From the IMG/VR virus record IMGVR_UViG_3300031111_000236: a stretch of 64,000 bases of DNA. One strand, given 5' to 3'. This DNA comes from an uncultured virus (IMG/VR IMGVR_UViG_3300031111_000236) (lineage: Duplodnaviria > Heunggongvirae > Uroviricota > Caudoviricetes). The notes under the pieces were generated by a model. The model made no database searches, was not told where the DNA came from, and saw nothing but the letters and a program-made list of their open reading frames with translations. Shown piece after piece: positions 2,417 through 64,000 of the stretch (position 1 is the first letter of the stretch; every line of letters starts with the position of its first letter). Position numbers and translations under genes: made by a program.

Positions 2417-2417
2417 T

Positions 2418-2450
2418 GAAAATTTTTCAGCGGACGGCTGAAATTTTTTC
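2418..2450 (+). terminator. Inverted repeat with T tract, probable terminator
   Basis: GAAAATTTTTCAGC-GGACG-GCTGAAATTTTTTC directly after a stop codon. Confidence 0.5.
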
Positions 2451-50564: not shown

Positions 50565-50576
50565 GACCTCGTTTTA

Positions 50577-50598: not shown

Positions 50599-50640
50599 AT
50601 CTCGAAACCTTTATTAGGGACCCCACCAATCTCCCTGGAG

Positions 50641-50706
50641 ATGAACAGAGCAACTCTCTTAGCATCCAGTTCGGGACTATCATCGTTGTCCCTTCTTAGT
50701 CTGTAG
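50641..50706 (+). promoter_or_regulatory. Leader ORF MNRATLLASSSGLSSLSLLSL upstream of Leu/Ser tRNA cluster
   Basis: 14 of 20 non-start codons are Leu/Ser; all six Leu codons used; TTTATTA box about 30 nt upstream. Confidence 0.8.
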
Positions 50707-50805: not shown

Positions 50806-50891
50806 GCACGGGTGGCTGAGTCAGGCTAAAGCGTTCGCCTTGAGAGCGTTTGACCCTCTTGGGTTTGCAGGTTCGAATCCTGTCCCGTGCG
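50806..50891 (+). tRNA. tRNA-Ser(TGA)
   Basis: GCACGGG/CCCGTGC acceptor, long variable arm, G73; outer anticodon stem mismatched. Confidence 0.8.
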
Positions 50892-50920
50892 CCTTTCCTT
50901 CTTACATACTATCATAGAGC

Positions 50921-51008
50921 GCAGGGGTGGTCGAGAGGTCGAAGACGGGGGATTCAAAATCCTCTACCATAGGTCCCGTCCCAGGTTCGAGTCCTGGTCC
51001 CTGCACCA
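50921..51008 (+). tRNA. tRNA-Leu(CAA)
   Basis: GGGGA-TTCAAAA-TCCTC; long variable region; encoded CCA. Confidence 0.9.
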
Positions 51009-51009
51009 C

Positions 51010-51092
51010 GGCAGAGTGTCCGAGCGGCGAAGGAGGGCGGCTTAAAACCGCCTACATAGGCCACGTCAGGGGTTCGAGTCCCCTCTCTGCCT
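51010..51092 (+). tRNA. tRNA-Leu(TAA)
   Basis: GGCGG-CTTAAAA-CCGCC; long variable region. Confidence 0.85.
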
Positions 51093-51103
51093 TCACAAGC
51101 AAC

Positions 51104-51190
51104 GGGGGAGTAGCCAAGTGGTCGAAGGCGGTGCGCTCAGAACGCACTACATAGGCAACGTCACAGGTTCAAATCCTGTCTCCCCTACCA
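51104..51190 (+). tRNA. tRNA-Leu(CAG)
   Basis: GTGCG-CTCAGAA-CGCAC; encoded CCA. Confidence 0.9.
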
Positions 51191-51196
51191 TTTCAT

Positions 51197-51285
51197 GGAG
51201 AGGTAGCCGAGCCTGGTCGAAGGCGGCAGGTCGAGGACCTGCTACATAGGCAACATCGGGGGTTCAAATCCCCCCCTCTCTACCA
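51197..51285 (+). tRNA. tRNA-Leu(GAG), C33
   Basis: GCAGG-TCGAGGA-CCTGC; encoded CCA. Confidence 0.85.
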
Positions 51286-51288
51286 TTT

Positions 51289-51370
51289 GCCAGGATGACC
51301 GAGCGGTAAGGTGGCGGTTTGCTAAGCCGTAGGGCCAGTGGCCCCGCAGGTTCAAATCCTGCTCCTGGCG
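51289..51370 (+). tRNA. tRNA-Ser(GCT)
   Basis: GCGGT-TTGCTAA-GCCGT; variable arm GGGCC/GGCCC; G73. Confidence 0.9.
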
Positions 51371-51510
51371 TTATCTTTTTATATTTCGTACTCCATCGCC
51401 TATCATGGTCAAAAGTATCTATCATTACAAGTCGTCCCGTGGTTGTAGTACTCGGTTCTAACGAGTACGGGCGGCTCAATTATGCCGCCACAACCAGAGG
51501 TGACAAGCGG

Positions 51511-53608: not shown

Positions 53609-53944
53609 ATGCTCCCTATTGGACACTTCGCTCTTGGGTACTGCATCGTCATGGCTGTGCTCCTCTTGACACGGACCTATCGCTTCGTTCTTCGTGACGG
53701 GGCCTTAGCCGCTCTTGGAGGGCTTCTCGCCATGCTACCCGACGCTCCCTACGTCTTCTTGGGTGAGCACGCCTCGTGGCACGACAGCCCCATTATGAAC
53801 ATTTTCTTTTTTCATCAGTGGTTCGACGTGCTCTTGAGAGATGACTATCTCGTGTTCCCCGCTATCCTGATAGCTATCGCAGTCCTCTTGACAGGGGTGC
53901 TCTGGATGGTTGATAAGGACCACAGTAAGGTCATCGAGAAGTGA
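53609..53944 (+). CDS. Small membrane-bound metal-dependent hydrolase-like protein
   Basis: MLPIGH...MLPD...FFFH in TM helices; ATG 53609 downstream of TATATA. Confidence 0.55.
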   Translation: MLPIGHFALGYCIVMAVLLLTRTYRFVLRDGALAALGGLLAMLPDAPYVFLGEHASWHDSPIMNIFFFHQWFDVLLRDDYLVFPAILIAIAVLLTGVLWMVDKDHSKVIEK

Positions 53945-53993
53945 ACACGTAAACTTTTTATAGTACCGTGCCGATAGTCCTGTGGTTACTAAC

Positions 53994-54071
53994 ATGAACG
54001 TAATCCCAACCTTCACGGAAAGAGTCGATAGGTGGCAGGAGCGACCCTGCCGCCATCCGCAAGTACTCTAA
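53994..54071 (+). promoter_or_regulatory. Leader ORF MNVIPTFTERVDRWQERPCRHPQVL upstream of tRNA cluster 2
   Basis: 16 consecutive codons cover exactly the nine amino acids of cluster 2; TTTTTATA at 53955. Confidence 0.8.
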
Positions 54072-54089
54072 TTTTGAGAAGGAAGAGTT

Positions 54090-54164
54090 GGGAACATAGT
54101 GTAGCCTGGTTTATCACGGTGGTCTCCAAAACCACTTACATCGGTTCGAATCCGATTGTTCCCA
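54090..54164 (+). tRNA. tRNA-Trp(CCA), intron-less
   Basis: GTGGT-CTCCAAA-ACCAC. Confidence 0.9.
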
Positions 54165-54207
54165 CTCTATTTTCTCGAAATTTTTGTACCACGAGAAGCA
54201 ACAGAGT

Positions 54208-54281
54208 GGGCCTGTAGGGTAGCTTGGATATCCTGTTGGACTCCTAATCCATTGACAGCGGTTCAAATCCGCTCAGGTCCG
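54208..54281 (+). tRNA. tRNA-Arg(CCT)
   Basis: TTGGA-CTCCTAA-TCCAT. Confidence 0.9.
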
Positions 54282-54294
54282 TTACCAAGAGCAA

Positions 54295-54368
54295 GCTCCC
54301 GTAGTGTAATGGGAAAATCATCCTTGCCTTTCAAGCAAGGGAATCGAGTTCGAATCTCGGCGGGAGTA
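54295..54368 (+). tRNA. tRNA-Glu(TTC)
   Basis: CTTGC-CTTTCAA-GCAAG. Confidence 0.9.
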
Positions 54369-54369
54369 T

Positions 54370-54447
54370 GGGCGTGTATCCGAGCCTGGACAAGGTGCGG
54401 GTCTTCTAAACCCGTTTGCAGGGGTTCAAATCCCCTCACGCCCACCA
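54370..54447 (+). tRNA. tRNA-Arg(TCT)
   Basis: CGGGT-CTTCTAA-ACCCG; encoded CCA. Confidence 0.9.
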
Positions 54448-54458
54448 TCAGCAAGCAT

Positions 54459-54532
54459 GGGCGCATAGTCTAACCTGGATAGGACACCTGGCTACGGACC
54501 AGGCAATGGGAGTTCGAATCTCTCTGCGCTCA
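54459..54532 (+). tRNA. tRNA-Arg(ACG)
   Basis: CCTGG-CTACGGA-CCAGG. Confidence 0.9.
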
Positions 54533-54549
54533 CTAAACATAAGCAAAAT

Positions 54550-54787
54550 GTGGCGGTAGCCGTCGAACGTACCTCTGGTTCCTGACGAGGAACCAAGTCG
54601 GGCACAACAAGTAGGCGGAGCGATTAACCTCAAGTCCGAAGTATCTGGGCTGAAACAATGTGGTTGAAGTCCACCCCATGTATCTCGGTGGGTAGGTCAT
54701 GTGCATGACGATGTGCAGTGACCGATACAATCCAGGTATGAGGTCTCCGAGGGAGAAATAAAGTGGGTTAAATTCCCACCCGCCGCA
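54550..54787 (+). ncRNA. About 240-nt RNA with tRNA-like acceptor stem and T arm
   Basis: GTGGCGG/CCGCCGC-A acceptor; T arm GTGGG-TTAAATT-CCCAC; internal hairpins; sits in a tRNA slot of the array. Confidence 0.6.
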
Positions 54788-54791
54788 CTAT

Positions 54792-54866
54792 GGGGACGTG
54801 GTGTAGCTTGGACCAGCACCCCTGGTTTGGGACCAGGAAACCACAGTTCGAATCTGTGCGTCCCCA
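54792..54866 (+). tRNA. tRNA-Pro(TGG)
   Basis: CCTGG-TTTGGGA-CCAGG; G1:C72. Confidence 0.9.
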
Positions 54867-54890
54867 TTACCCCTCTTGGGGGTGAGTGAG

Positions 54891-55193
54891 ATGAGCAAGC
54901 AAAAACAAACGTCAGACGCAAACAAGGCAATCAAGAACACAGCGAAGGTTCACCTTGACATCAACCACGGTAGGCTTGATGCTGAAGTGGTAATCAACGG
55001 TGTTGGCGTTAAGTTCCTCCGTGAGATGGACGCAGACGCAGAGGTGAAGATGAACAAGGTGGTCGAGAGCTTGATGACTCTCGTCCCTACCCCGTCGTAC
55101 CCGACACCTGATGAGCCTGAAGTTTGGCGTGACCAAGAATCTACTAATGATACCGTGACCCCCACGGTATCTCCTATGGCGGGAGTGGTGTAG
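54891..55193 (+). CDS. Small hypothetical protein within tRNA array
   Basis: GGTGA SD; 3' end overlaps tRNA-His. Confidence 0.5.
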   Translation: MSKQKQTSDANKAIKNTAKVHLDINHGRLDAEVVINGVGVKFLREMDADAEVKMNKVVESLMTLVPTPSYPTPDEPEVWRDQESTNDTVTPTVSPMAGVV

Positions 55194-55250
55194 TCGGTAG
55201 CATCGGAGGTTGTGGGCCTCCAGGGTTGGGTTCGAGTCCCGACTCCCGCC
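55178..55250 (+). tRNA. tRNA-His(GTG) with encoded G-1
   Basis: GGAGG-TTGTGGG-CCTCC; G-1:C73. Confidence 0.9.
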
Positions 55251-55264
55251 CTCTTGAAACCACT

Positions 55265-55349
55265 GATAGGGTGGCCGAGCCAGGTAAGGCGATAGGTTGC
55301 AGACCTGTTGTCTTAGACATCGGGAGTTCAAATCTCCCCCCTATCTCCA
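55265..55349 (+). tRNA. tRNA-Cys(GCA) with long variable arm
   Basis: ATAGG-TTGCAGA-CCTGT; TGTC-TTA-GACA arm; U73 and CCA. Confidence 0.85.
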
Positions 55350-55476
55350 CTCGCACTCGCAACAGACACATGATTTCCAGTGGAAGTCGAGACCACACAC
55401 TGTTGCCACTGGAAACATAGCCAGTCAATTTACAGTGGCAGTGGTGTCACCACACTGTTTCCACTGTAGCAAGCAT

Positions 55477-55552
55477 GGGGCAGTAGTCAAGCCAGGTTAT
55501 TGACAACACCCTTACAAGGTGTAGGTCGGCGGTTCGAATCCGTCCTGCCCTA
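55477..55552 (+). tRNA. tRNA-Val(TAC)
   Basis: ACACC-CTTACAA-GGTGT. Confidence 0.9.
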
Positions 55553-55567
55553 TTTCCCATACGCATT

Positions 55568-55640
55568 GGCCCCTTGGTGTAAGTGGACAACATATCGGGC
55601 TTTGGACCCGATGCTCTTGGTTCGAATCCAAGAGGGGCTA
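55568..55640 (+). tRNA. tRNA-Gln(TTG)
   Basis: TCGGG-CTTTGGA-CCCGA. Confidence 0.9.
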
Positions 55641-55642
55641 CT

Positions 55643-55831
55643 ATGAAGTGCCAGTTCGTTGGCGGTGTCCACGTGGACAAACATCTGCCCAACCCCGAGG
55701 ACTATGAGTGCCATGAGGAGGCTACCCATACCCTTGTGGGTAATCACAAGCAGTGGCACTTCTGTCAGAAGCACTTTGAAGAGGCCAGTGACTTCAAGGA
55801 CTCTGCAAAGCACGAAACAGCAAGCATATAG
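55643..55831 (+). CDS. Small Cys/His protein within tRNA array
   Basis: 62 aa MKCQF...ECHEEAT...FCQKH filling the spacer between the two Gln tRNAs. Confidence 0.5.
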   Translation: MKCQFVGGVHVDKHLPNPEDYECHEEATHTLVGNHKQWHFCQKHFEEASDFKDSAKHETASI

Positions 55832-55901
55832 CCCCTTGGTGTAATCAGCAACATACCAGGCTCTGGACCTGGAGAAGGCGGGGCAGAACCGTCAGGGGCT
55901 G
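55830..55901 (+). tRNA. tRNA-Gln(CTG), atypical D and T loops
   Basis: A1:U72; CCAGG-CTCTGGA-CCTGG; T loop GGCAGAA. Confidence 0.75.
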
Positions 55902-55922
55902 TTAGACAATAAGCAACAAGAC

Positions 55923-55995
55923 GCTCCCGTAGTGTAGTGGTCAACCATTTGAGGTTCTCACCCTCAAGCCTGGGGTTCGAATCCCCACGGGAGTA
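55923..55995 (+). tRNA. tRNA-Glu(CTC)
   Basis: TGAGG-TTCTCAC-CCTCA. Confidence 0.9.
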
Positions 55996-56002
55996 CTCAT
56001 AC

Positions 56003-56074
56003 GCCTCCGTAGTGTAGCGGTCATCATCTTGGTTTGTCAGGCCAGGGACTTGGGTTCAAATCCCAACGGGGGCG
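56003..56074 (+). tRNA. tRNA-Asp(GTC)
   Basis: TTGGT-TTGTCAG-GCCAG; G73; followed by T tract. Confidence 0.9.
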
Positions 56075-56118
56075 TTCTTTTTCTCAAAGTTTTTATACCT
56101 CAAGAGCTTACTCATTAT

Positions 56119-56296
56119 TGGCGAAAAAGTGGTCCCTACCGTGGATAGATAGCCTGTCAATCAGCGGTGGTGGAACATCGCAATCCCAAAGCCATCTGGG
56201 ATAGACCTCAGCGGCGGAGCGTGGTCACATCAGATACACCCGTGACCACAGAGTCCGTCGATGGGACCGCCGAGCGGTGATACGCCGCTCTCGCCA
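56119..56296 (+). ncRNA. Stand-alone structured RNA, about 180 nt
   Basis: Own TTTTATA box (56091); TGGCGA/TCGCCA closing stem; GGTCCC/GGGACC, GTGGTCAC/GTGACCAC and GAGCGG/CCGCTC helices; T tract after. Confidence 0.65.
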
Positions 56297-56368
56297 CTTT
56301 TAATATTATAAGTTTTTGGGTACACCTTATATACTTCTGGTATGATTGTCTTATATCAAGGTGGCTTT

Positions 56369-57412
56369 ATGACCAAGAAAAAGGGCTTTCGAGGCAATCC
56401 CCAGACACACAGGCTCAATGCACACGGAATACATAACGAGAGGGCTTTTGCCTCCTCTTCACCAAGCATGATAAACGTGCAAGCTCGTGCTGTCACACCC
56501 ATACAAAAGAGCCACAGTTACTCAGACAGGTCAGAACCCTCTGGTAAGGTCAACAACGGTGGCTACGTGGACGAGTACCTTGTGTTGGTCGAGAAGAAGA
56601 CGGTGGAAGAGGCTACAATCAAGCCTGGTGACGAGATAGAGATGACCTTCGCAGGGGCTCCCAATGATTTCCCGAGGCCCTGGACTCTCGTTAGTGCCAG
56701 GGACGAGTACTCTACGGTATCCTACAGCAACACCCCAACCGTAGTAGTGCGTGCGGCCAATGGCAAGGAGATGACTCTCAAGAACGCACAGGTGTATAGC
56801 CCACACAAGCCCGAGAAGTCGTTCGGGTATTGGGTCAAGCCCAAGGGCCTCCCCCCGAGATACGAAAAGTACGTGACCATCCAGGACGAGGTAACTCTCC
56901 TCGAACTCATAAAGAAAGAGGACCAAGGCGGTATCAACGAGTACATAGAGAAGATGTACGAGAGGTCTGGAATAGACAAGAAGAAATACCCGCTCAACTT
57001 CTTCAGGGTGGATGTCATTAACGGTCTCTGGTACAAGGGACTCGTGAAGCAAAAGAACAGTCGCATGGCTATCTCCAAGCATGGTGAGAAGGTTCTCAAG
57101 AGTGGGGCTTTCGGCTCTGCTCAGATGCGTGATTGGGAGAAGAACAAGGTTGTTAAGATGGACGATGAGGACATCGAGATATTCGATGCCAAAACCCAGA
57201 AAATGATACGCAAGTACATGAAGAAGGGTAACCTCTACTATATGTTCGGCTTCCTGGTCTTCGAAGATGACAAGTCTCTACGTATCGTCGGAGAGAACGA
57301 CTCTTATGATGATTACACTATCAGGATGAGAACCAAGGACTTTGATAAGGTGTACGATAGACTGGAGAACGCAGACGGTGGCGTTTACGCCACAACCGAA
57401 GGCTGGAAGTGA
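56369..57412 (+). CDS. Multi-domain hypothetical protein with RHG-type leader
   Basis: GFRGNPQTHRLNAHGIHNERAFA. Confidence 0.75.
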   Translation: MTKKKGFRGNPQTHRLNAHGIHNERAFASSSPSMINVQARAVTPIQKSHSYSDRSEPSGKVNNGGYVDEYLVLVEKKTVEEATIKPGDEIEMTFAGAPNDFPRPWTLVSARDEYSTVSYSNTPTVVVRAANGKEMTLKNAQVYSPHKPEKSFGYWVKPKGLPPRYEKYVTIQDEVTLLELIKKEDQGGINEYIEKMYERSGIDKKKYPLNFFRVDVINGLWYKGLVKQKNSRMAISKHGEKVLKSGAFGSAQMRDWEKNKVVKMDDEDIEIFDAKTQKMIRKYMKKGNLYYMFGFLVFEDDKSLRIVGENDSYDDYTIRMRTKDFDKVYDRLENADGGVYATTEGWK

Positions 57413-57416
57413 TGAT

Positions 57417-57680
57417 ATGGCGGACTTCTTTCAAACAGTGGGACTTGGAATTGCTGTAGGTATCTCCGTAGTACTCGGCTTGATACTCGGGTGGGCCATG
57501 TACTTTAACGCTAAGAAGTGCGGCAGGAGCACGGTCTGGGGCATAGCCTACATCATATTCTCGCCAGTGATGACACTCTTGAGCTTCCTGGGGTTCCCAG
57601 GAGCATGGGCTTTCGCCTACCTTCCCTGGCTCATCATAGTCGGATACCTCTTGACAGGGGCCAACAAGTGCTCGACGTGA
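57417..57680 (+). CDS. Small membrane protein
   Basis: Three hydrophobic segments. Confidence 0.6.
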   Translation: MADFFQTVGLGIAVGISVVLGLILGWAMYFNAKKCGRSTVWGIAYIIFSPVMTLLSFLGFPGAWAFAYLPWLIIVGYLLTGANKCST

Positions 57681-57684
57681 GACG

Positions 57685-58071
57685 ATGTACAAGGCCGCCC
57701 TCCTTGGTCTAATTACTCTCCTGGTACTCGCACCATTGTGTATACTTGTAATTGAAGAGTTCAGGGACCAGCCAGACATAGAGGAGACGACTACACTCGA
57801 TTGGTGGTCTGTAGTTCACTTCGGCTCAGGCGTGGTGCTCTTTCTGGTCCTATCAAGGATTGGATTTTCGCCGAGAGCGAATATCATAGTCACTACTGTG
57901 CTTGGCTGTCTGTTTGAGGTGGTCGAGCACCTCCTCATTGAACCTCTTGCCATGTTTGGTGGTAGAGAGCTGGTTTTCAATATAGGGGCAGATATGCTCC
58001 TCGTCTATTTGGGTGCTATCACGGCGATGTGGATATGGTGTCGCAAGACAGAGTGCCCTCTTGATGTTTAG
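57685..58071 (+). CDS. Membrane protein, possible intramembrane metal-dependent hydrolase
   Basis: DWWSVVHF..G, FEVVE, E...N..AD in TM helices. Confidence 0.55.
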   Translation: MYKAALLGLITLLVLAPLCILVIEEFRDQPDIEETTTLDWWSVVHFGSGVVLFLVLSRIGFSPRANIIVTTVLGCLFEVVEHLLIEPLAMFGGRELVFNIGADMLLVYLGAITAMWIWCRKTECPLDV

Positions 58072-59045
58072 TGAGAGTACTCTGAATAGGTTGAGTAGGC
58101 AAGTGCACCCTGTATCAAGAGGACTATCTCATCGACGACCCTCTTGTACTTCTTGATATCAATGCAGTGGATACCGCCAACGTTGACGTGGCCGCCTCCA
58201 CCGTATCTCTTCATGATGTCACCGATGTTTGGGACTGTGCGCTTCTGGTCCTTCTTGAATATGTTCATGCCAACGTTCATCCTCACGAACTCGGGAGAGT
58301 CGCCGTAGAAGCTCACGCTGATGAGATACTCCACCTCGGGGTACTCAGCGTATATCTCGTACAGGCTATCGGAGAACCCTGGTATGTCGCATACGTCAAG
58401 GACGGCTACACCATGCTCCCTGATATCGAGCCTCCTCTTGGTGATGTCCTTGAACGACTTTTGCTTGTCCCTCTTGTCGAAGAACCGCCTCTTGGCCCAA
58501 TCGCTGTTAGCTATATCGCTAAAGCTCTTGCCTCTCATAAGCTCTGATATGACCCAACGCCTGTAGTCGTCGTCCTCTCTTCTATTTCCGCTCCTGAGCG
58601 TGATGGAGATGATACCAGCGGTGCTCGGGTTGAGTACCTCCTCTGGTGTCAGGTCCCCGCTGTCTATCTTGTTGGTGTACTTCAGGATAGACTGGAACCT
58701 CCTGTTGCACGGTAACTTGGAGGCGTACATCCTGTATATGACGGCGGCACAGCTCGGCTCAAGGAACCAGTGCCAGACACCGATACTGTCGTCGTTAGAG
58801 TCGATGTTAGGCTTGTTCGAAATGTGGTGGTCGGCCCAAAGCCCTGCTACTTTCGGTTGCGGGAGGTCGCAGACGATATCCCTCTTGGTCGTGTAGACCT
58901 GCCCTGCTTTCATATCGTTCGGGGTAGTGAAAATAATGTTCTCCACAGGTATCTTGAATATGGTAGCCATGAAGAACCCACTTATCACCCCGTCGAGGTC
59001 GTCGTGTGTAATTATTCTGTCGTATTTGCACATAGGCATCACCAC
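58068..59045 (-). CDS. DHH/DHHA1 phosphoesterase (NrnA/nanoRNase-like)
   Basis: THDDLDG, CDLP, ADHH, GGGGHVNVGG. Confidence 0.85.
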   Translation of the reverse strand: MVMPMCKYDRIITHDDLDGVISGFFMATIFKIPVENIIFTTPNDMKAGQVYTTKRDIVCDLPQPKVAGLWADHHISNKPNIDSNDDSIGVWHWFLEPSCAAVIYRMYASKLPCNRRFQSILKYTNKIDSGDLTPEEVLNPSTAGIISITLRSGNRREDDDYRRWVISELMRGKSFSDIANSDWAKRRFFDKRDKQKSFKDITKRRLDIREHGVAVLDVCDIPGFSDSLYEIYAEYPEVEYLISVSFYGDSPEFVRMNVGMNIFKKDQKRTVPNIGDIMKRYGGGGHVNVGGIHCIDIKKYKRVVDEIVLLIQGALAYSTYSEYSH

Positions 59046-59169
59046 TGATATTGGTGTCAGGAGTTATAATGGGTCGGCGGGAAGCTCGTGTTTTGAAGAC
59101 AATAGAAGTGCACCGCCCTTCCCAAAACCTTATTTACTTCGACCCTCTCTTGATGCTTGATGATAGTCG

Positions 59170-59682
59170 ATGACGTGGAAATGGGAAAAGCTGGAGGCAC
59201 AACTCCTGGCAGTCCGAGCCATAAAGGACTACGCAGTTGTGTCTGGGGGCCTCGCATGGCATTTAATGTCGCCGCCCCACGAAGAGAACAAGAAGGTCCA
59301 CGACCACTCTGATGTGGACTTATTCATAATCCCAGAACACTTCGCCACCGCTATTGAAATTCTGAAGAGCATGGACTTCCACCGATGGTGGACCAGGTAC
59401 GATAACATCACTCCCAACTTCTACAGGTATGGTAAGACCACTACCTGGACCAACGGCAAGAGGGTGAAAACCGAGCTTGACCTATTCGTCCGTAAGATGC
59501 CATACCGCATGGTAGGTGAGTTCAAGGTCATAACACCAGAGGCTCTATTACCTCTGTATCAGGAGTGCCACTCAAGTTCGAGATGTGTAGCCGTACAGTC
59601 GGCAATACAGCTCATGAAGAACGGGATAGACCCTCTTGGGCGAATTGAATTAGTGGAGGGGATACCATGCCGACACTCTTGA
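59170..59682 (+). CDS. Pol-beta superfamily nucleotidyltransferase
   Basis: VSGGLAW...HSDVDLF...ELDLF. Confidence 0.7.
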   Translation: MTWKWEKLEAQLLAVRAIKDYAVVSGGLAWHLMSPPHEENKKVHDHSDVDLFIIPEHFATAIEILKSMDFHRWWTRYDNITPNFYRYGKTTTWTNGKRVKTELDLFVRKMPYRMVGEFKVITPEALLPLYQECHSSSRCVAVQSAIQLMKNGIDPLGRIELVEGIPCRHS

Positions 59683-60635
59683 GCAGGAAGGACTTTCGAG
59701 AGGGAGTCTTCAGAAGGGACGGCGGGGTATGCGTTGTTTGCGGTGAGAAGGCCGCAGATGCCCATCACATCGTTGAGCGTGCCTTATGGAATGATGAGGG
59801 CTACTACATGGAGAACGGGGCCTCAGTGTGCACTAAGCACCATCTCCTTGCCGAGAGCAATCACATACCTCCCTGTGTCGTGAGGAGGTACGCTGGTATC
59901 AAGGATACTGTGGTCCCGAAGAGCTTCGACCCTACTCTTGAGTACGATAAGTGGGGCAAGCCGTTCGTGAACCCGACCAGGGACGACATCAAGTACCCTT
60001 CCACCTTCTATCTGAACTTTTCACCAAGTCAGTATGATGAGGAGGGGAAGGCTGAGAACGTAGACAACAAGGACTTCGCCAGGGTCCCTCTTGTAGCCAC
60101 TATCAAGATGGACGGGGCCTGTTGTAAGCTGACACCAGATTACGTGGCCGCTCGTAATGGTTCGCACGCCACCAAGAAGAGCTTCGATATGCTCAAGGCT
60201 ATGCACCCGAGTTTCAAGTACCTGATACCACAGAACGTGAGGGTATTTGCAGAGTGGCTTTACAAGAAACACTCGATACATTACACGGATGACATGGCAC
60301 TCGGCTCCCTCTTGCAGGTTTTCGGAGTTTACTACGTCGATAAGAGGATATGGGGGTCATGGGACGAGGTAGAGGCAATGGCCGCTACTCTTGGGTTTCC
60401 CACCGTTCCTGTTATTTCGAAGTTCGAGGTCGATACCGAGTGGGAGTTCGCCAACAGGGTATCTAAGATGGCCGAGGACATCGTTGCACAGGGTCACGAG
60501 GGTCTTGTGGTCAGGAACGCCTTCGCCTTTCATTACGGGCAGTTCGGACGCTTCATGGGCAAGTACGTTCGTGCTAATCATATTCAGATAAAGGACGAAG
60601 ACGAGCGTACTATCATACGGAACGAGACTGTTTGA
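59667..60635 (+). CDS. HNH-type domain fused to ATP-dependent RNA ligase
   Basis: CVVC...AHHI...NGASVCTKHH; ligase motifs KMDG, FAEW, FGV, EGLVVR, KYVR. Confidence 0.8.
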   Translation: MPTLLSRKDFREGVFRRDGGVCVVCGEKAADAHHIVERALWNDEGYYMENGASVCTKHHLLAESNHIPPCVVRRYAGIKDTVVPKSFDPTLEYDKWGKPFVNPTRDDIKYPSTFYLNFSPSQYDEEGKAENVDNKDFARVPLVATIKMDGACCKLTPDYVAARNGSHATKKSFDMLKAMHPSFKYLIPQNVRVFAEWLYKKHSIHYTDDMALGSLLQVFGVYYVDKRIWGSWDEVEAMAATLGFPTVPVISKFEVDTEWEFANRVSKMAEDIVAQGHEGLVVRNAFAFHYGQFGRFMGKYVRANHIQIKDEDERTIIRNETV

Positions 60636-60689
60636 GCATCGTCCCACAACCCTTAAATATCATCGAGACATAATCAAGAGGGAGCAGAG

Positions 60690-60773
60690 ATGACTCACTT
60701 TACCTATATCGGGACCGCTATAACGGGCGGAACATACGCCAAAACCGCAATTAAGAGCGGTAATGGGCAGTAG
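60690..60773 (+). promoter_or_regulatory. Leader ORF MTHFTYIGTAITGGTYAKTAIKSGNGQ upstream of tRNA cluster 3
   Basis: 23 of 26 non-start codons are amino acids of cluster 3; CTTAAATA at 60652; GGGAG SD. Confidence 0.8.
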
Positions 60774-60884
60774 AATCCCGATGAAGGTGAAGTTCTTGTA
60801 GAAATTTTTTCTGCGTCGCTGAAATTTTTCAAAGAGGGCCTCGCCCTCTCGGTGTTCTTCTTCCATTAGTCGCTCGTAGAGATT

Positions 60885-60959
60885 GGACCCGTGGCCAAGT
60901 TAGGGACGGCAGTGGGCTTTTAACCCACCAAATCCAGGGTTCGAATCCCTGCGGGTCCG
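60885..60959 (+). tRNA. tRNA-Lys(TTT)
   Basis: GTGGG-CTTTTAA-CCCAC. Confidence 0.9.
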
Positions 60960-60970
60960 CTCTATTTTGT

Positions 60971-61044
60971 GGGTCCATAGCTCAGTTAGGTTGAGCAGGG
61001 GACTCTTAATCCCAAGGTCGGGGGTTCAAATCCCTCTGGACCCA
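60971..61044 (+). tRNA. tRNA-Lys(CTT)
   Basis: GGGGA-CTCTTAA-TCCCA. Confidence 0.9.
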
Positions 61045-61138
61045 TTGACCCGAGGTTTACGTCGCAGGGCTGTATCGCAGGTTGCGACGAGGATGAGGTG
61101 GCGACATCCTTCACTCACCTGCGTCGATACGCAACCAT

Positions 61139-61211
61139 GTCACTGTGGCCAAACGGTGAAGGCACTCGGCTGTTAACCGAGAGATTGCAGGTTCGAATCC
61201 TGTCGGTGACG
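61139..61211 (+). tRNA. tRNA-Asn(GTT)
   Basis: CTCGG-CTGTTAA-CCGAG. Confidence 0.9.
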
Positions 61212-61226
61212 TTCAATCATACGCAA

Positions 61227-61333
61227 GCACGGGTGGCCAAGTTGGTAAGGCACTCATCAGGGTGGTGCAAGTCCACGTACAAAATAATCAGCACTGTTGA
61301 GAAGGACCGTGGGTTCAAGTCCCACCCCGTGCG
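61227..61333 (+). ncRNA. tRNA-like RNA with the anticodon loop replaced by a larger structured insert
   Basis: Perfect acceptor, D and T arms; about 39 nt where a 7-nt anticodon loop should be. Confidence 0.7.
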
Positions 61334-61350
61334 TTCAATCGCAACACAAT

Positions 61351-61429
61351 GGGAGTATAGCATAGCCTGGGATTGCGCCAGAGTGAAGTCTTGGTCATTG
61401 CGGGAGTTCAAATCTCTCTGCTCCCACCA
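61351..61429 (+). tRNA. tRNA-Phe(GAA), atypical anticodon arm
   Basis: CCAGA-GTGAAGT-CTTGG; encoded CCA. Confidence 0.75.
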
Positions 61430-61433
61430 TCAT

Positions 61434-61507
61434 GGGCTCGTAAGTCAGTTAGGGAGACTACCTCTCCTGCAAAGAGGAAGCCGAGGGTTCAATTCCCTCC
61501 GAGTCCA
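61434..61507 (+). tRNA. tRNA-Ala(TGC), C33
   Basis: G3:U70; CCTCT-CCTGCAA-AGAGG. Confidence 0.9.
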
Positions 61508-61513
61508 CTATAT

Positions 61514-61587
61514 GCCACCGTAGCTAAACTGGATAAGGCAGTCGCCTTGTAAGCGACAGATTGGGGGTTCGAGTCCCTTCGGTGGCT
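61514..61587 (+). tRNA. tRNA-Thr(TGT)
   Basis: GTCGC-CTTGTAA-GCGAC; U73. Confidence 0.9.
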
Positions 61588-61601
61588 CTTACAAACGCAA
61601 C

Positions 61602-61672
61602 CTGCTCATGGTGTAGTGGTAGCACGGGTGGCTGTAGACCTCCAAGCGGGAGTTCGACTCTCTCTGGGCAGA
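61602..61672 (+). tRNA. tRNA-Tyr(GTA), archaeal/eukaryal type
   Basis: C1:G72, short variable loop, GGTGG-CTGTAGA-CCTCC. Confidence 0.9.
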
Positions 61673-61677
61673 TTCAC

Positions 61678-61751
61678 GGGCTGTTAGCCAAGCTGGTAAG
61701 GCGTTCGGCTCATAACCGAAAGACTCGGGGGTTCGAGTCCCTCACGGCCCA
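61678..61751 (+). tRNA. tRNA(CAT), probably Ile2 rather than Met
   Basis: TTCGG-CTCATAA-CCGAA; GGGC acceptor start like tRNA-Ile(GAT); ATA codon present in the cluster leader. Confidence 0.8.
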
Positions 61752-61764
61752 TTAGATAAGCAAT

Positions 61765-61837
61765 GCTGGCGTGGCTCAGGCAGTAGAGCGTCGCTCTGGT
61801 AAGGCGAAGGTCGTGGGTGCAAATCCCATCGTCAGCT
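61765..61837 (+). tRNA. tRNA-Thr(GGT), atypical T loop
   Basis: TCGCT-CTGGTAA-GGCGA; T loop TGCAAAT. Confidence 0.85.
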
Positions 61838-61840
61838 TTC

Positions 61841-61867
61841 CAAGTGATATCAAGTGATATCAAGTGA
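61841..61867 (+). repeat. Tandem 10-bp repeat CAAGTGATAT x2.7
   Basis: Direct reading of the spacer. Confidence 0.8.
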
Positions 61868-61873
61868 ATCCAA

Positions 61874-61948
61874 GGGCGTATGGCGCAGTGGTAGCGCACT
61901 CGCCTGATAAGCGAGAGGCCGTGAGTTCAAGCCTCACTACGCCCACCA
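61874..61948 (+). tRNA. tRNA-Ile(GAT)
   Basis: CTCGC-CTGATAA-GCGAG; encoded CCA. Confidence 0.9.
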
Positions 61949-61949
61949 T

Positions 61950-62024
61950 GCGAGAGTGGTGTTCAACGGTTCAGCATATCTGGCTTCCAACCAGACGGTC
62001 AGGGTTCGACTCCCTGCTCTCGCA
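61950..62024 (+). tRNA. tRNA-Gly(TCC)
   Basis: TCTGG-CTTCCAA-CCAGA; A73. Confidence 0.9.
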
Positions 62025-62034
62025 CTACAGGAGC

Positions 62035-62223
62035 GTGGTACAATCGGTCTACTGCCCAAGATGCCAGAACAAGATGCGCCGAGTGTTCGACTCGACACAG
62101 ATATGCGACCACTGCCGAACGAGGTGGTCCATAGACGAGCTGAAGATGCCTACCTTGAAGTCCTTTCGTGACAGAATAGACTTCAGGGACATAGAGGAGG
62201 AGTGGGTGTGGAATCCAACATAA
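62035..62223 (+). CDS. Small Zn-ribbon protein within tRNA array
   Basis: CPRC...CDHC; AGGAG before GTG; fills the spacer between the two Gly tRNAs. Confidence 0.55.
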   Translation: MVQSVYCPRCQNKMRRVFDSTQICDHCRTRWSIDELKMPTLKSFRDRIDFRDIEEEWVWNPT

Positions 62224-62295
62224 GCGGTGTTGGTGTTAGTGGTAGCATACCTGGTCGCCATCCAGGAGGGGTGGGTTCGAATCCTGCACACCGCA
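62224..62295 (+). tRNA. tRNA-Gly(GCC), C33
   Basis: CCTGG-TCGCCAT-CCAGG; A73. Confidence 0.85.
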
Positions 62296-62420
62296 CTGGC
62301 CCCTGGCCTATACAATAAGGAGGTGGTACGTCGAGTACGAAAAGAAGTGACACCAGGGGGACGGGGTTCGTCCTCGTCCCCACCCATTTCTTTTTATATC
62401 TCGTGCGTGTAGGATTGCTC

Positions 62421-62969
62421 ATGGAAGTCACTATCGAGATAACACAGTGGTGTGATAGAGGATGTCCCTACTGTTCGAGTAATGCTACAGAGGGCGGGAA
62501 GCATCTGTCTTATCACGATATTCACACTTTTCTTCAGGACGTGTACAAGAAGCACGGCATCTCCAGGATAAACATATCAGGAGGCGAACCTCTCGCTCAC
62601 CCAGACTTCTACATTATCAAGAGGCTCTGTGACAAACTTTGCGATGAGGTTTGGGTCTACACTAACGCTATCCAGAACATCATATTCAATGCTGACTGCA
62701 TGAAGGAAGTCCGAGTACACGCCAATGTGTGTATGACGGCTGGTGACAAGTACATACCGAAGAACGTCGAACAGGTCCACCTCTTGAAGGCCGTTCATAA
62801 GGGCCGAGCAAAGGACATGGAACTGCCCAACATCAAGGCTTCTGGGAATTTTTTCGAAGGTAAGCACGGTGGTTGCTCAAAGTGCGAACACGCCCTTTTA
62901 CAGGCTGATGGTAAGATAGTAGAGGCCCCGTGTAAGAAGGATTACCAATGCTCTATCAAACAGCAGTAG
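62421..62969 (+). CDS. Short radical SAM protein
   Basis: CDRGCPYC, ISGGEP, YTN; C-terminal CxxC...PC. Confidence 0.85.
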   Translation: MEVTIEITQWCDRGCPYCSSNATEGGKHLSYHDIHTFLQDVYKKHGISRINISGGEPLAHPDFYIIKRLCDKLCDEVWVYTNAIQNIIFNADCMKEVRVHANVCMTAGDKYIPKNVEQVHLLKAVHKGRAKDMELPNIKASGNFFEGKHGGCSKCEHALLQADGKIVEAPCKKDYQCSIKQQ

Positions 62970-63433
62970 GAGAGGTAAACGTCACCTATCACCCCATCAG
63001 CTTCGATGACCTTTATTTTGAGGACCTTGAGACTATCAAGAGCTGGTGCAGACTGCCATACAGGAACTACAAGGGGTGCAGGAACGCTAAGGACTGCTCG
63101 TACTTCAGAAACGACCTACAAGAGGTTCTCCGAGAGCACAAGCGACTCTATCTTGTCTGGTGCGATTGGAACCTCGAAGAGTACGCTATTCGCATGAAGA
63201 AAAAGCATCCCGAGTGGTCTGATAGGAACTGTCGCAACCTCTTGAGGTGGCAGTCATCACTCAAGAGTACGCTCCGCAAGTTTATCGAGAGCCGAATGAT
63301 GGGGTGTACGCCATATTGGAACGCCGAGGGTGGAGGAGTCAACTTCTACAGGACGATGCCTAAGTTCGGAGTACCTCTTGAGCTACCACGTGACCTGAAG
63401 AAGGTACGACTCATAGTCGTCGTAGGATGCTGA
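62948..63433 (+). CDS. Cys-containing predicted metal-binding protein (DUF2284-like, tentative)
   Basis: WC..PY...KGC....C and EGGGVNFYRT. Confidence 0.45.
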   Translation: MLYQTAVGEVNVTYHPISFDDLYFEDLETIKSWCRLPYRNYKGCRNAKDCSYFRNDLQEVLREHKRLYLVWCDWNLEEYAIRMKKKHPEWSDRNCRNLLRWQSSLKSTLRKFIESRMMGCTPYWNAEGGGVNFYRTMPKFGVPLELPRDLKKVRLIVVVGC

Positions 63434-63508
63434 ATTGTTACTTATTGTCTTACTACGACGAACAGTTCGTCCGAAACTTTAAATAGTTCGCCGTGCGTTT
63501 GAGATTCG

Positions 63509-64000
63509 GTGAGCAAATTGACAGGCGACAACCAAAGAAAAAGCAACAAGAAGCAAGAGTTTTTCCTTCGTGGGTACTGCGTGCTGAAAGGTATCGGGAA
63601 GAACACCGACAAGTTCCAAGTGTGCCGAGTAGGTGACTGCCAGAAATCTGCGAAATCTGCAAAAGGCACTCTTCTCATAAACATCTACCATCAGAAAAGG
63701 GAAGAAATGCCTGACTCCATAGAGGATGCCAAAAAGGAGATTCTCAAAATGGCCGCAGATGACAAGTACTGCCAGAGAGTTATATCTGGTAGTCCCATAA
63801 CAAACGGCCACAGAGGAAGAGTAGTACCGATAGTTTTCGGTACGACAGAACTTCTTTACGTTACTCACAAGGAAGCCTGTGATGAGGCTGGTGTGGAGTT
63901 CGACAGAGACGCAAGCAAGAACGCTGATTGGGACGATATGGCGCACTATTTCCTCTACAGCACCACAAGGATGGTCGTGGGTTCCAGGATAAAGAAGAGC
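63509..64000 (+). CDS. Hypothetical protein, truncated by window end (not in ORF track)
   Basis: GTG start about 25 nt after TTTAAATA; 164 codons open to the window end (MSKLTGDNQRK...). Confidence 0.6.
   Translation, partial: MSKLTGDNQRKSNKKQEFFLRGYCVLKGIGKNTDKFQVCRVGDCQKSAKSAKGTLLINIYHQKREEMPDSIEDAKKEILKMAADDKYCQRVISGSPITNGHRGRVVPIVFGTTELLYVTHKEACDEAGVEFDRDASKNADWDDMAHYFLYSTTRMVVGSRIKKS

What the first reader, a model, noticed from the sequence alone, without database searches (positions are those of the whole stretch)
60652..60884. Cluster-3 leader samples all Thr, Ile, Gly, Tyr and Lys codons
The 27-codon ORF contains ACT/ACC/ACG/ACA, ATC/ATA/ATT, GGG/GGC/GGA/GGT, TAT/TAC, AAA/AAG, GCT/GCC/GCA, TTT and AAT. 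ACTTTACCT..ATCGGGA (60697-60714) pairs with TCCCGAT..AGGTGAAGT (60776-60793) right after the stop, followed by two U tracts (60805-60829) typical of archaeal terminators. The ATA codon also supports the CAT tRNA being Ile2.
Basis: partly seen in the sequence, partly recalled or inferred. Interest (0 to 1): 0.88.

Follow-up and report, generated by a model that had tools for sequence, protein, structure and literature searches.

The report
Codon-matched mini-gene heading a tRNA cluster
A tiny gene in front of a block of tRNA genes is spelled almost entirely in the codons those tRNAs read, so it probably lets ribosomes test the supply of these tRNAs and adjust how much of the block is made.

Summary
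Confirmed and enlarged. At 60690-60773 a 27-codon ATG ORF lies 37 nt behind a TATA-like box and 111 nt before tRNA cluster 3. 24 of its 27 residues are amino acids carried by that cluster (background 0.48), and each of the 12 anticodons has a cognate codon. The 18-nt pairing 60697-60714/60776-60793 and the T6/T5 tracts are real; the same tract module recurs at a true gene end (2417-2450). Clusters 1 and 2 have equivalent ORFs (6/6 and 13/13 anticodons), matching only in the ORF frame and only their own cluster. Similar unannotated mini-ORFs precede tRNA units in the cultured haloarchaeal virus HGTV-1 (2 of 7 multi-tRNA units) and in metagenome contigs L017 and L011. Best reading: a translated 'roll-call' leader by which ribosomes gauge the supply of the array's tRNAs and set read-through into the array. 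The output step and its sign are inferred: there are no RNA data and no close relatives, and ORF-to-post-stop pairing is no commoner than in shuffles. The Ile2 inference is circular. This scan had already noted codon-matched leaders before tRNA arrays on other DNA (phages, an Asgard archaeon); seven literature searches listed no paper on it.

The parts
60653..60660 (+). TATA-like box TTAAATAT, 37 nt before the ATG of the cluster-3 mini-ORF
   Evidence: Related motif AAANNTTTTTATA occurs 7 times in the window against 0.49 expected. It starts 30-34 nt before the ATGs at 34399, 43705 and 51904, with no Shine-Dalgarno between.
60690..60773 (+). Cluster-3 mini-ORF (L3), 27 codons plus TAG: MTHFTYIGTAITGGTYAKTAIKSGNGQ
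   Evidence: 24/27 residues in the cluster's amino-acid set. 21/26 codons after the start are cognate to a cluster tRNA, against 9 and 10 of 26 in the other two frames. 12/12 anticodons covered.
60697..60714 (+). 5' arm of the long-range helix (codons 3-9 of L3)
   Evidence: Inverted repeat I1; paired in the minimum-energy fold.
60776..60793 (+). 3' arm of the long-range helix, starting 3 nt after the stop codon
60798..60829 (+). Terminator-like module: GTAGAAA, T6 (60805-60810), hairpin TTTCTGC-GTC-GCTGAAA (60808-60824), T5 (60825-60829). Hairpin 60798-60804:60808-60814 competes with hairpin 60808-60814:60818-60824.
   Evidence: same module at a gene end, 2417-2450.
60833..60849 (+). G+C-rich hairpin AGAGGGC-CTC-GCCCTCT before the first tRNA
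60885..62296 (+). tRNA cluster 3: Lys ttt, Lys ctt, Asn gtt, (Asn gtt with intron, ARAGORN -i only), Phe gaa, Ala tgc, Thr tgt, Tyr gta, cat, Thr ggt, Ile gat, Gly tcc, Gly gcc
50610..50617 (+). TATA-like box TTTATTAG, 31 nt before the ATG of the cluster-1 mini-ORF, behind a 27-nt T run that ends the upstream gene
50641..50706 (+). Cluster-1 mini-ORF (L1), 21 codons: MNRATLLASSSGLSSLSLLSL (7 Leu using all six Leu codons, 7 Ser)
   Evidence: 14/21 residues Leu or Ser (background 0.138, P 4e-8); 6/6 anticodons covered.
50806..51371 (+). tRNA cluster 1: Ser tga, Leu caa, Leu taa, Leu cag, Leu gag, Ser gct
53955..53962 (+). TATA box TTTTTATA, 39 nt before the ATG of the cluster-2 mini-ORF
53994..54071 (+). 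Cluster-2 mini-ORF (L2), 25 codons: MNVIPTFTERVDRWQERPCRHPQVL
   Evidence: 18/25 residues in the set W,R,E,P,H,C,V,Q,D (background 0.38). 13/13 anticodons covered; 9 of 200,000 random ORFs do so. Ends 18 nt before tRNA-Trp.
54090..56075 (+). tRNA cluster 2: Trp, Arg cct, Glu ttc, Arg tct, Arg acg, Pro, His, Cys, Val, Gln ttg, (Gln ctg, Rfam only, 55830-55901), Glu ctc, Asp. Two small protein ORFs and an odd tRNA-like element lie interspersed.
54168..54185 (+). T4 and GAAATTTTT (T5) directly after tRNA-Trp, 22 nt before tRNA-Arg: same word as in the L3 module
2417..2450 (+). Comparator: the same GAAA-T5 / hairpin / GCTGAAA-T6 module right after the stop of gene 305-2416 and before the promoter AAAGTTTAAATAG of the next gene
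60660..60866 (-). Rival: 68-codon ORF on the opposite strand across the whole leader
   Evidence: No Pfam family; 0 relatives at E<=0.001 among 1.84 billion representative proteins.

Best explanation
The 27-codon ORF is a translated cis-acting sensor, a 'roll-call' leader at the 5' end of the cluster-3 tRNA transcript. It holds at least one codon for every tRNA encoded downstream. The time a ribosome needs to cross it therefore reports whether any of those tRNAs is short, whether through codon-usage mismatch, host shut-off or tRNA-cleaving defence.

I infer that a ribosome lingering in the ORF keeps the 60697-60714/60776-60793 helix open. This lets RNA polymerase read through the T6/T5 terminator module into the tRNA genes. 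Quick passage lets the leader fold, and transcription ends at the T tracts. That would be negative feedback on tRNA supply.

Clusters 1 and 2 carry the same device with their own codon sets. Shown: the ORFs, their frame-specific and cluster-specific codon match, their placement just behind archaeal-type promoters, the stable leader fold, and a terminator-type module between ORF and tRNAs in cluster 3. Inferred: translation, coupling to termination, and the sign of the response.
For: (1) Codon match. L3 has 24/27, L2 18/25 and L1 14/21 residues in the own cluster's amino-acid set. Binomial P values are 1.2e-5, 5.9e-4 and 4e-8. The 3x3 leader-by-cluster table gives chi2 65.3, P 2e-13.
(2) Every anticodon has a cognate codon: 12/12, 13/13 and 6/6. 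Random ORFs achieve this in 409, 9 and 370 of 200,000 draws.
(3) The match is frame-specific: cognate codons are 21/26, against 9 and 10 in the other frames. It is also cluster-specific: at most 5 codons match another cluster.
(4) Among 290 small ATG ORFs in six frames, only L2 and L3 themselves reach their marks.
(5) TATA-like boxes start 31, 39 and 37 nt before the three ATGs. This is the geometry of the window's leaderless protein genes, which is 30-34 nt.
(6) Leader folds give z -4.55 for L3 and -4.04 for L2.
(7) The T-tract module behind L3 recurs at a true gene end.
(8) Independent elements show the same thing. In HGTV-1, MTSRCSIQSSQISWSQISTF precedes Gln/Trp/Ser/Ile/Ser/Gln/Ile (14/19, P 3e-7) and MKSKTTTTGTRL precedes Thr/Thr/Thr/Lys (7/11, P 2e-5). 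Each is unique among 190 and 214 small ORFs, and neither is annotated. L011 gives 17/25, P 9e-5. In L017, three units give P 0.006-0.023 with all anticodons covered.
(9) In 76 tRNA units, upstream sense-strand ORFs reach P<0.01 in 5 cases, antisense ORFs in 0, and permuted pairings in 1.3 on average.
Against: No RNA or ribosome data exist; the only run holding the DNA is a DNA run. No close relative was found, so neither conservation of the ORF nor covariation of the helix could be tested.

Pairing between ORF body and post-stop region is not above chance: 74, 58 and 51 of 200 shuffles reach it for L3, L2 and L1. L1's fold is unremarkable, with z -1.2 to -1.4.

The output element is not uniform. 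L1 has only a T4 downstream. L2 ends 18 nt before tRNA-Trp, and its T5 lies after that tRNA. In HGTV-1 a second promoter follows the mini-ORF.

Archaeal oligo-T termination is not known to need RNA hairpins (recalled, not checked here), so the link from helix to termination is weak. 5 of 26 L3 codons (CAC, GCT, GCC, AGC, CAG) have no cognate tRNA in the cluster by simple wobble rules.

Outside the window the per-unit P values are picked from the best ORF per unit. 5 of 7 multi-tRNA units in HGTV-1 have no such ORF.
Confidence: 0.55

Rival explanations
1. Same sensor, opposite sign. A ribosome that keeps pace with RNA polymerase pushes it through the T tracts, or blocks a termination factor. 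Good supply of the array's tRNAs then raises array transcription, which would be a translation-capacity gate or an autocatalytic switch. Slow decoding uncouples the two and transcription ends at T6/T5.
For: The stop codon (60771-60773) lies 32 nt before T6 (60805). That is about the reach of a ribosome abutting a polymerase (geometry recalled from bacterial expressomes). Archaeal termination at T tracts needs no hairpin (recalled). The ORF-to-post-stop pairing is not above chance.
Against: Positive feedback gives no obvious benefit for listing every tRNA of the array. The spacing is not kept in L1 or L2. Nothing here measures coupling.
Confidence: 0.15
2. The mini-ORF acts after transcription. 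Ribosome occupancy of the 5' leader controls folding, RNase P access or 5'-end decay of the tRNA precursor, and not termination.
For: L2 ends only 18 nt before tRNA-Trp, and its helix reaches to 8 nt before the tRNA. L1 has no T5 between ORF and tRNAs. In L1 the start codon itself is paired (50641-50643 with 50735-50737). HGTV-1 mini-ORF b likewise has its AUG inside an 11-bp helix.
Against: Cluster 3 does carry a terminator-type module between ORF and tRNAs. No processing data exist.
Confidence: 0.12
3. The mini-ORF is its own small transcription unit that always ends at the T tracts. The tRNAs are made from a separate promoter. The codon match serves something other than cis control, for example a peptide or a decoy message.
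For: In HGTV-1 a second promoter-like box (gacttaaatacc) lies between mini-ORF a and its tRNAs, and a T5 overlaps the ORF's stop. L018 shows a similar second A/T box.
Against: No TATA-like box is visible between 60830 and 60884. The T5 box at 54181 would place a start inside tRNA-Arg. The peptides of the three clusters share nothing but their match to the neighbouring tRNAs.
Confidence: 0.1
4. The + strand ORF is a chance frame, and the real gene is the 68-codon ORF on the opposite strand (60660-60866).
For: It is the longest ORF in the gap and has a hydrophobic stretch.
Against: It has no Pfam family and 0 relatives among 1.84 billion representatives. Its upstream region is the antisense of tRNA-Lys. 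Clusters 1 and 2 have the codon-matched sense ORF but only 28- and 34-codon antisense ORFs. Chance cannot give three frame-specific, cluster-specific matches.
Confidence: 0.03

Closest known systems
Multivalent leader-peptide transcription attenuators of enterobacterial amino-acid operons (thrL with Thr/Ile codons, ilvL with Ile/Val/Leu; trpL, hisL, leuL, pheL)
   Same: A short ORF in the transcribed leader, rich in the codons whose decoding is to be sensed. RNA pairing overlaps the ORF, and a terminator lies before the regulated genes.
   Different: Here the regulated genes are the tRNAs themselves, not biosynthetic enzymes. The ORF lists one to a few codons for up to 13 different tRNAs instead of runs of one or two. 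The promoters are archaeal-type with a leaderless or near-leaderless start. The terminator is of the oligo-T type. No Rfam leader family matches. What is said of the enterobacterial leaders is recalled knowledge.
pheM leader of the E. coli pheST operon
   Same: A translation-apparatus gene is controlled by a codon-rich leader peptide.
   Different: It controls a synthetase, uses one amino acid, and is bacterial with a hairpin terminator. Recalled, not read here.
Leaderless polycysteine short ORFs of mycobacteria ('ribulon'; bioRxiv 10.1101/834739, abstract read)
   Same: A leaderless short ORF is the first gene of the transcript. Ribosomes stalled in it block an RNA duplex and so control downstream genes.
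   Different: There the output is translation of the next gene, the signal is one amino acid, and the host is bacterial. Here the downstream genes are untranslated tRNAs.
T-box riboswitches
   Same: They sense tRNA status in cis and control read-through of a terminator.
   Different: A T-box binds one uncharged tRNA directly through a specifier codon and needs no ribosome. Here the match is an ATG-to-stop reading frame and is frame-specific. No T-box match was found in Rfam.
Codon-matched leader ORFs before tRNA arrays noted earlier by this scan (e1-2978539, e1-5836933, e1-5870437, e1-5886956, e1-5926054, e1-6024449, e1-6040601; Asgard array e1-5621009)
   Same: The same logic: a promoter, a test ORF in the array's codons, a stop signal, then the tRNA array.
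   Different: Those are unchecked AI notes on other DNA, mostly bacterial phages with hairpin terminators. This window has archaeal-type promoters and T-tract terminators. The instance in the cultured archaeal virus HGTV-1 was found here.

Membership tests
Ribosome-mediated leader-peptide attenuator | Short ORF inside the transcribed leader of the regulated genes, close behind the promoter | tested here: met
   TATA-like boxes start 31, 39 and 37 nt before the ATGs of L1, L2 and L3. Window protein genes have 30-34 nt. No other TATA-like box is seen between L3 and tRNA-Lys. Transcription starts are inferred, not mapped.
Ribosome-mediated leader-peptide attenuator | ORF enriched in the codons whose decoding reports on the regulated product | tested here: met
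   24/27, 18/25 and 14/21 residues fall in the own cluster's set. 12/12, 13/13 and 6/6 anticodons are covered. The match is frame- and cluster-specific.
Ribosome-mediated leader-peptide attenuator | Terminator between leader ORF and regulated genes | tested here: inconclusive
   L3: the T6/hairpin/T5 module recurs at a gene end. L2: only a T4 at the stop, with T4+T5 after the first tRNA. L1: only a T4.
Ribosome-mediated leader-peptide attenuator | [quoted passage not shown] | tested here: inconclusive
   The helix 60697-60714/60776-60793 is real, and two competing small hairpins share 60808-60814. However, ORF-to-post-stop pairing is as common in shuffles, and no alignment exists for covariation.
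Ribosome-mediated leader-peptide attenuator | The ORF is translated, and read-through depends on its decoding speed | not testable with these tools
   No run on record as RNA holds the sequence; bench work is needed.
Ribosome-mediated leader-peptide attenuator | Conservation of the arrangement among relatives | tested here: inconclusive
   There are no close relatives. Analogous, non-homologous mini-ORFs occur in HGTV-1 (2 of 7 multi-tRNA units), L011 and L017 (3 clear of 4 units).
T-box riboswitch / Rfam leader families | Match to the family covariance model | tested here: not met
   Only tRNA matches at gathering score in 49000-64000. At E<=10 there are only far-sub-threshold chance hits in 60600-60900 and 50560-50820.
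Archaeal-type transcription signals | A/T box with a purine-rich stretch just upstream, about 30 nt before leaderless starts; oligo-T at gene ends | tested here: met
   AAANNTTTTTATA occurs 7 times against 0.49 expected. There is no Shine-Dalgarno between box and ATG at 34399, 43705 and 51904. T5+ runs follow gene and cluster ends. The host domain itself is not shown: the RNA ligase family is mostly in bacterial phages and Atlas taxa are mixed.

The most novel reading that the evidence does not exclude
A general and undescribed control class. tRNA arrays of archaeal viruses are autoregulated by 'roll-call' mini-ORFs that list a codon for every tRNA in the array. Through these, the pioneer ribosome's transit time sets read-through of oligo-T terminators. 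This would be both the first ribosome-mediated attenuation shown in Archaea and the first feedback of tRNA genes through decoding by their own products, perhaps serving as a viral alarm for host tRNA depletion. It is directly testable in the cultured HGTV-1/Halogranum system, where two such unannotated mini-ORFs exist.
Probability: 0.45. Interest if true: 0.9.

Novelty: new variant of a known kind. Interest (0 to 1): 0.8.

Why it matters
Why viruses carry large tRNA sets, and how they control them, is an open question. A 2026 paper on HGTV-1 calls the function of its 34 tRNA genes unknown, and the words leader, small ORF and promoter do not occur in it (passages read). A leader that spells out its own array's codons implies that the virus measures decoding of exactly those codons. 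That fits the idea that viral tRNAs answer shortage or cleavage of host tRNAs. It would also extend leader-peptide sensing to Archaea, to oligo-T termination and to non-coding target genes, and it gives an easy search rule for finding more cases. Because the same pattern is present in a cultured archaeal virus, the idea can be tested at the bench.

Tried and rejected
- No whole genome is held for the window.
- Close relatives were sought and not found. The single-protein scan of IMG/VR gave none. tblastn of all window proteins against 160 fetched loci showed that almost only the RNA ligase is shared. A 23-nt stretch of tRNA-Lys had 0 matches in IMG/VR. A 25-nt stretch of HGTV-1 tRNA-Gln matched only HGTV-1 itself; one search was my mistyped version and found nothing.
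- The genome-contig scan gave mostly bacterial contigs at 37% identity or less, and I did not analyse them.
- No RNA holder is listed. One DNA run from a marine sediment metagenome holds the stretch and may be its source.
- The opposite-strand 68-codon ORF was rejected as the real gene.
- I first thought the GAAATTTTT words might be a second promoter for the tRNAs. I rejected this for the window because the same module follows a stop codon and precedes a separate promoter at 2417-2484, and because the copy at 54177 would start transcription inside tRNA-Arg.
- I first thought an 'ORF-enclosing helix' was a shared hallmark. The count of such pairs is not above shuffles, and it is absent in L011 and HGTV-1 a.
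- No virus hallmark genes were found by Pfam or PHROGs among 77 window ORFs scanned (17, 25 and 36, one of them scanned twice). Virus versus other mobile element therefore stays open.
- The Atlas look-up of the MoxR-like ATPase gave mixed taxa and no host clue.
- L018's leader is not enriched by residue count (17/34, P 0.2), although all 9 anticodons are covered.
- L017 unit d is ambiguous between two frames.
- The Fisher combination is inflated by picking the best ORF per unit, and I do not rely on it.

Full report
Between the stop of an RNA-ligase gene (59667-60635; Pfam RNA_ligase, E 1.7e-20) and tRNA-Lys (60885) lies a 249-nt gap. Its only ATG ORF of 20 or more codons on the + strand is 60690-60773, MTHFTYIGTAITGGTYAKTAIKSGNGQ. 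The inverted repeat is at the stated coordinates: 60697-60714 / 60776-60793, 18 nt, 83% complementary. In the minimum-energy fold, 17 of the 18 positions pair. T6 is at 60805-60810 and T5 at 60825-60829.

THE MATCH TO THE tRNAs IS STRONG AND SPECIFIC. The window has 30 tRNA genes by ARAGORN, 31 with introns allowed and 31 by Rfam. They lie in three clusters that split the 20 amino acids without overlap:
- cluster 1: Ser, Leu;
- cluster 2: Trp, Arg, Glu, Pro, His, Cys, Val, Gln, Asp;
- cluster 3: Lys, Asn, Phe, Ala, Thr, Tyr, Met/Ile(cat), Ile, Gly.

In L3, 24 of 27 residues belong to cluster 3's set, against a window proteome frequency of 0.483 (P 1.2e-5). With plain wobble rules (established knowledge), 21 of the 26 codons after the start are cognate to a cluster-3 tRNA, and all 12 anticodons are served. 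Of 200,000 random ORFs drawn with window codon usage, 409 do as well. The 'cat' anticodon counts only through ATA, that is, only if it is Ile2; otherwise only the start codon serves it.

ALL THREE CLUSTERS HAVE SUCH AN ORF. Cluster 1 is preceded by 50641-50706, MNRATLLASSSGLSSLSLLSL. It has 14/21 Leu or Ser (background 0.138, P 4e-8), uses all six Leu codons, and covers 6/6 anticodons. Cluster 2 is preceded by 53994-54071, MNVIPTFTERVDRWQERPCRHPQVL. It has 18/25 residues in its set and covers 13/13 anticodons, Trp, Cys and His included; 9 of 200,000 random ORFs do so.

The 3x3 table of leaders against clusters gives chi2 65.3, P 2e-13. The match exists only in the ORF frame: 11, 16 and 21 cognate codons, against 2-3, 5-6 and 9-10 in the other frames, each of which contains stops. 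It also exists only against the ORF's own cluster, with at most 5 codons matching another cluster. Of 290 ATG ORFs of 18-40 codons in six frames, only L2 and L3 themselves reach their marks. L1 is not in that list because an in-frame upstream ATG lengthens its nominal ORF.

PLACEMENT. The window carries an enriched motif, AAANNTTTTTATA (7 matches against 0.49 expected). Its A/T box starts 30-34 nt before the ATGs of protein genes at 34399, 43705 and 51904, with no Shine-Dalgarno between. That is the geometry of archaeal TATA boxes with leaderless messages, not of bacterial -10 boxes; this is an inference from established promoter geometry. The three mini-ORFs have such boxes 31, 39 and 37 nt before their ATGs. 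They therefore sit at or within a few bases of the predicted transcript 5' ends.

The host domain is not otherwise shown. Relatives of the ligase are mostly in bacterial phages. Most window proteins have no family. An Atlas look-up gave mixed taxa. The contig is 184,795 bp, and the only run holding it is a marine sediment metagenome.

WHAT LIES BETWEEN ORF AND tRNAs. Behind L3 stands GTAGAAA-TTTTTT-CTGC-GTC-GCTGAAA-TTTTT (60798-60829). The word GAAATTTTT occurs 4 times in the window against 0.36 expected, at 2440, 54177, 60801 and 60821. At 2417-2450 the same module (GAAAATTTTTCAGC, a loop, GCTGAAATTTTTT) follows the stop codon of gene 305-2416 and precedes a separate promoter for the next gene. 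T5 runs also follow the ends of clusters 1 and 2 (51376, 56078). I see no TATA-like box between 60830 and 60884, so transcription of cluster 3 most simply comes from the 60653 box through this module.

The design is not uniform, however. L1 has only a T4 downstream. L2 ends 18 nt before tRNA-Trp, with a T4 at its stop, and the T4+T5 lies after tRNA-Trp.

RNA FOLDING. The L3 leader (60683-60884) folds at -70.7 kcal/mol, z -4.55, with 0 of 200 shuffles as stable. L2 gives z -4.04 and L1 z -1.18. In all three, the 5' part of the ORF pairs with the stop or post-stop region. I tested whether that topology is special and it is not: 74, 58 and 51 of 200 dinucleotide shuffles have at least as many such pairs, and L011 and HGTV-1 a lack it. 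So the helix is real and stabilising in L3, but a shared 'enclosing helix' is not established. No Rfam family matches the leaders.

OTHER ELEMENTS. An alignment of ligase relatives was used to fetch 160 loci. None is a close relative of the window. Across 76 tRNA units with two or more tRNAs, the best upstream sense ORF reaches P<0.01 in 5 cases. Antisense ORFs do so in 0, and permuted ORF-unit pairings in 1.3 on average. Three of the five are the window's own clusters, or parts of them.

- L017, a G+C-rich 10-kb contig, has A/T boxes 31-34 nt before mini-ORFs that cover all anticodons of the Thr/Thr/Cys/Thr, Gln/Gln/His and Ala/Val/Gly/Asn units (P 0.007, 0.023 and 0.006). Its fourth unit is ambiguous.
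- L011 has MVSNSVTKACKTKSWSLLAALTLTSK before Ser/Lys/Trp/Ala/Leu/Leu (17/25, P 9e-5), with a box 34-35 nt before the ATG.
- L082 proved to be Halogranum tailed virus 1, HGTV-1 (NC_021328). Of its 7 multi-tRNA units, 2 have such ORFs. MTSRCSIQSSQISWSQISTF lies 37-38 nt behind a canonical promoter and before Gln/Trp/Ser/Ile/Ser/Gln/Ile (14/19, P 3e-7, all anticodons covered). A T5 overlaps its stop, and a second promoter-like box follows. MKSKTTTTGTRL lies before Thr/Thr/Thr/Lys (7/11, P 2e-5). Each is the only one of 190 and 214 small ORFs to reach its mark. The GenBank record annotates no CDS there. The other 5 units have a promoter directly before the tRNA and no such ORF.

HOW IT MOST LIKELY WORKS. 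A frame-specific list of the array's codons at the very start of the array's transcript is best explained as a device read by a ribosome. Its transit time depends on each listed tRNA. Because the downstream genes are those tRNAs, the natural logic is feedback.

I favour the classical sign. In this view, slow decoding holds a ribosome in the ORF, the leader cannot fold, the polymerase passes the T tracts, and more tRNA is made. I hold this at moderate confidence only. The link from RNA folding to oligo-T termination in archaea is not established (recalled), the output elements differ between clusters, and a coupled ribosome pushing the polymerase through the tracts would give the opposite sign. 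Post-transcriptional control of precursor processing, or a separate mini-transcript (as the second promoter in HGTV-1 suggests), remain possible.

The opposite-strand 68-codon ORF is not a serious rival. It has no family and 0 relatives among 1.84 billion representatives, and it cannot explain clusters 1 and 2.

WHAT IS KNOWN. Leader-peptide attenuation of amino-acid operons and of pheST is textbook (recalled). Leaderless short-ORF attenuators are described in mycobacteria (10.1101/834739, abstract read). Seven full-text searches (listings seen) showed no paper on leader ORFs controlling tRNA gene arrays.

The 2026 HGTV-1 paper (PMC13532342; passages seen) has no occurrence of leader, small ORF, promoter or transcriptome. 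Its supplements are on Zenodo and were not seen. In the eLife paper on phage tRNAs (PMC10264068; passages seen), leader and promoter do not occur and small ORF occurs only in a cited title.

This scan's own earlier notes, which are AI notes and unchecked by me, report the same logic before tRNA arrays of several phages and of an Asgard archaeon. So the pattern is not new to the scan. In my own 76 units, one bacterial-type candidate appeared (L145).

VERDICT. I class it as a new variant of a known kind. It is of high interest, and it can be tested at the bench in HGTV-1.

Noticed in passing
window 54549-54789: A tRNA-like element between tRNA-Arg(acg) and tRNA-Pro. A 7-bp acceptor-like stem (GTGGCGG/CCGCCGC) and a T-arm (GTGGG-TTAAATT-CCCAC) enclose about 200 nt of strongly folded insert (-90.5 kcal/mol over 253 nt). 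It is not called by ARAGORN or Rfam, and no anticodon was identified.
   Followed up: partly
window 56085-56340: A consensus promoter (CAAAGTTTTTATA) right after cluster 2 is followed by about 200 nt without an ORF but with long complementary ends (ggcgaaaaagtggtccc ... ctctcgccac). It may be an unclassified small RNA; Rfam gives nothing at E<=1.
   Followed up: partly
window 50806-62296: The three clusters divide the 20 amino acids with no overlap, and all isoacceptors of an amino acid sit together. With 31 or more tRNAs on a 184,795-bp contig, this element rivals or exceeds HGTV-1 (143,855 bp, 34-36 tRNAs). No capsid or terminase gene was recognised in the window, so virus versus other mobile element is open.
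   Followed up: partly
window 55643-55831; 54891-55193; about 62050-62223: Small protein ORFs are interleaved with the tRNAs. One is a 62-aa Cys/His-rich ORF abutting tRNA-Gln. One is a roughly 100-aa ORF after tRNA-Pro. One is a CPRC...CDHC zinc-ribbon-like stretch between the two tRNA-Gly genes.
   Followed up: no
window 51904-53355 and 53420-53530: A TnpB-type gene (OrfB_IS605 plus Cas12f1-like TNB) lies between clusters 1 and 2. It is followed by two direct copies of a roughly 35-nt word (cgcaata[tc]acgt..gttgtg[ag]cggaggatgtagg), perhaps its guide-RNA or element end.
   Followed up: no
window 54459-54533: tRNA-Arg has anticodon ACG. A34 is usual in bacteria and eukaryotes, whereas archaea mostly use GCG (recalled). 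This is odd for an element with archaeal-type promoters.
   Followed up: no
window 2417-2450 and 60798-60829: A shared gene-end module: GAAA, T5-6, a 7-bp hairpin ending GCTGAAA, then T5-6. The A and T runs flanking the hairpin would make it work in both directions.
   Followed up: partly
L145 about 12070-12260 (IMG/VR contig of 335,552 bp): A bacterial-type example. The 27-codon ORF MKDNEVMAMRREHREFDIIERPEGHRD is followed by a classic hairpin-plus-T terminator and then tRNAs Phe, Asp, Ile, Glu, Glu. All 5 anticodons are covered (P 0.006).
   Followed up: partly
L162 / HGTV-1 record about 48690-48753 and 49150-49190 (minus strand): Two unannotated mini-ORFs matched to their tRNA units. In the second, an 11-bp perfect inverted repeat (AACGATGAAGT / ACTTCATCGTT) buries the start codon, and the stop codon lies inside the next TATA-like box.
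   Followed up: yes
window 50566-50598: A run of 27 T, preceded by TTTTA, directly after the stop of gene 49149-50564. It is the longest T run in the window and lies just before the cluster-1 promoter.
   Followed up: no
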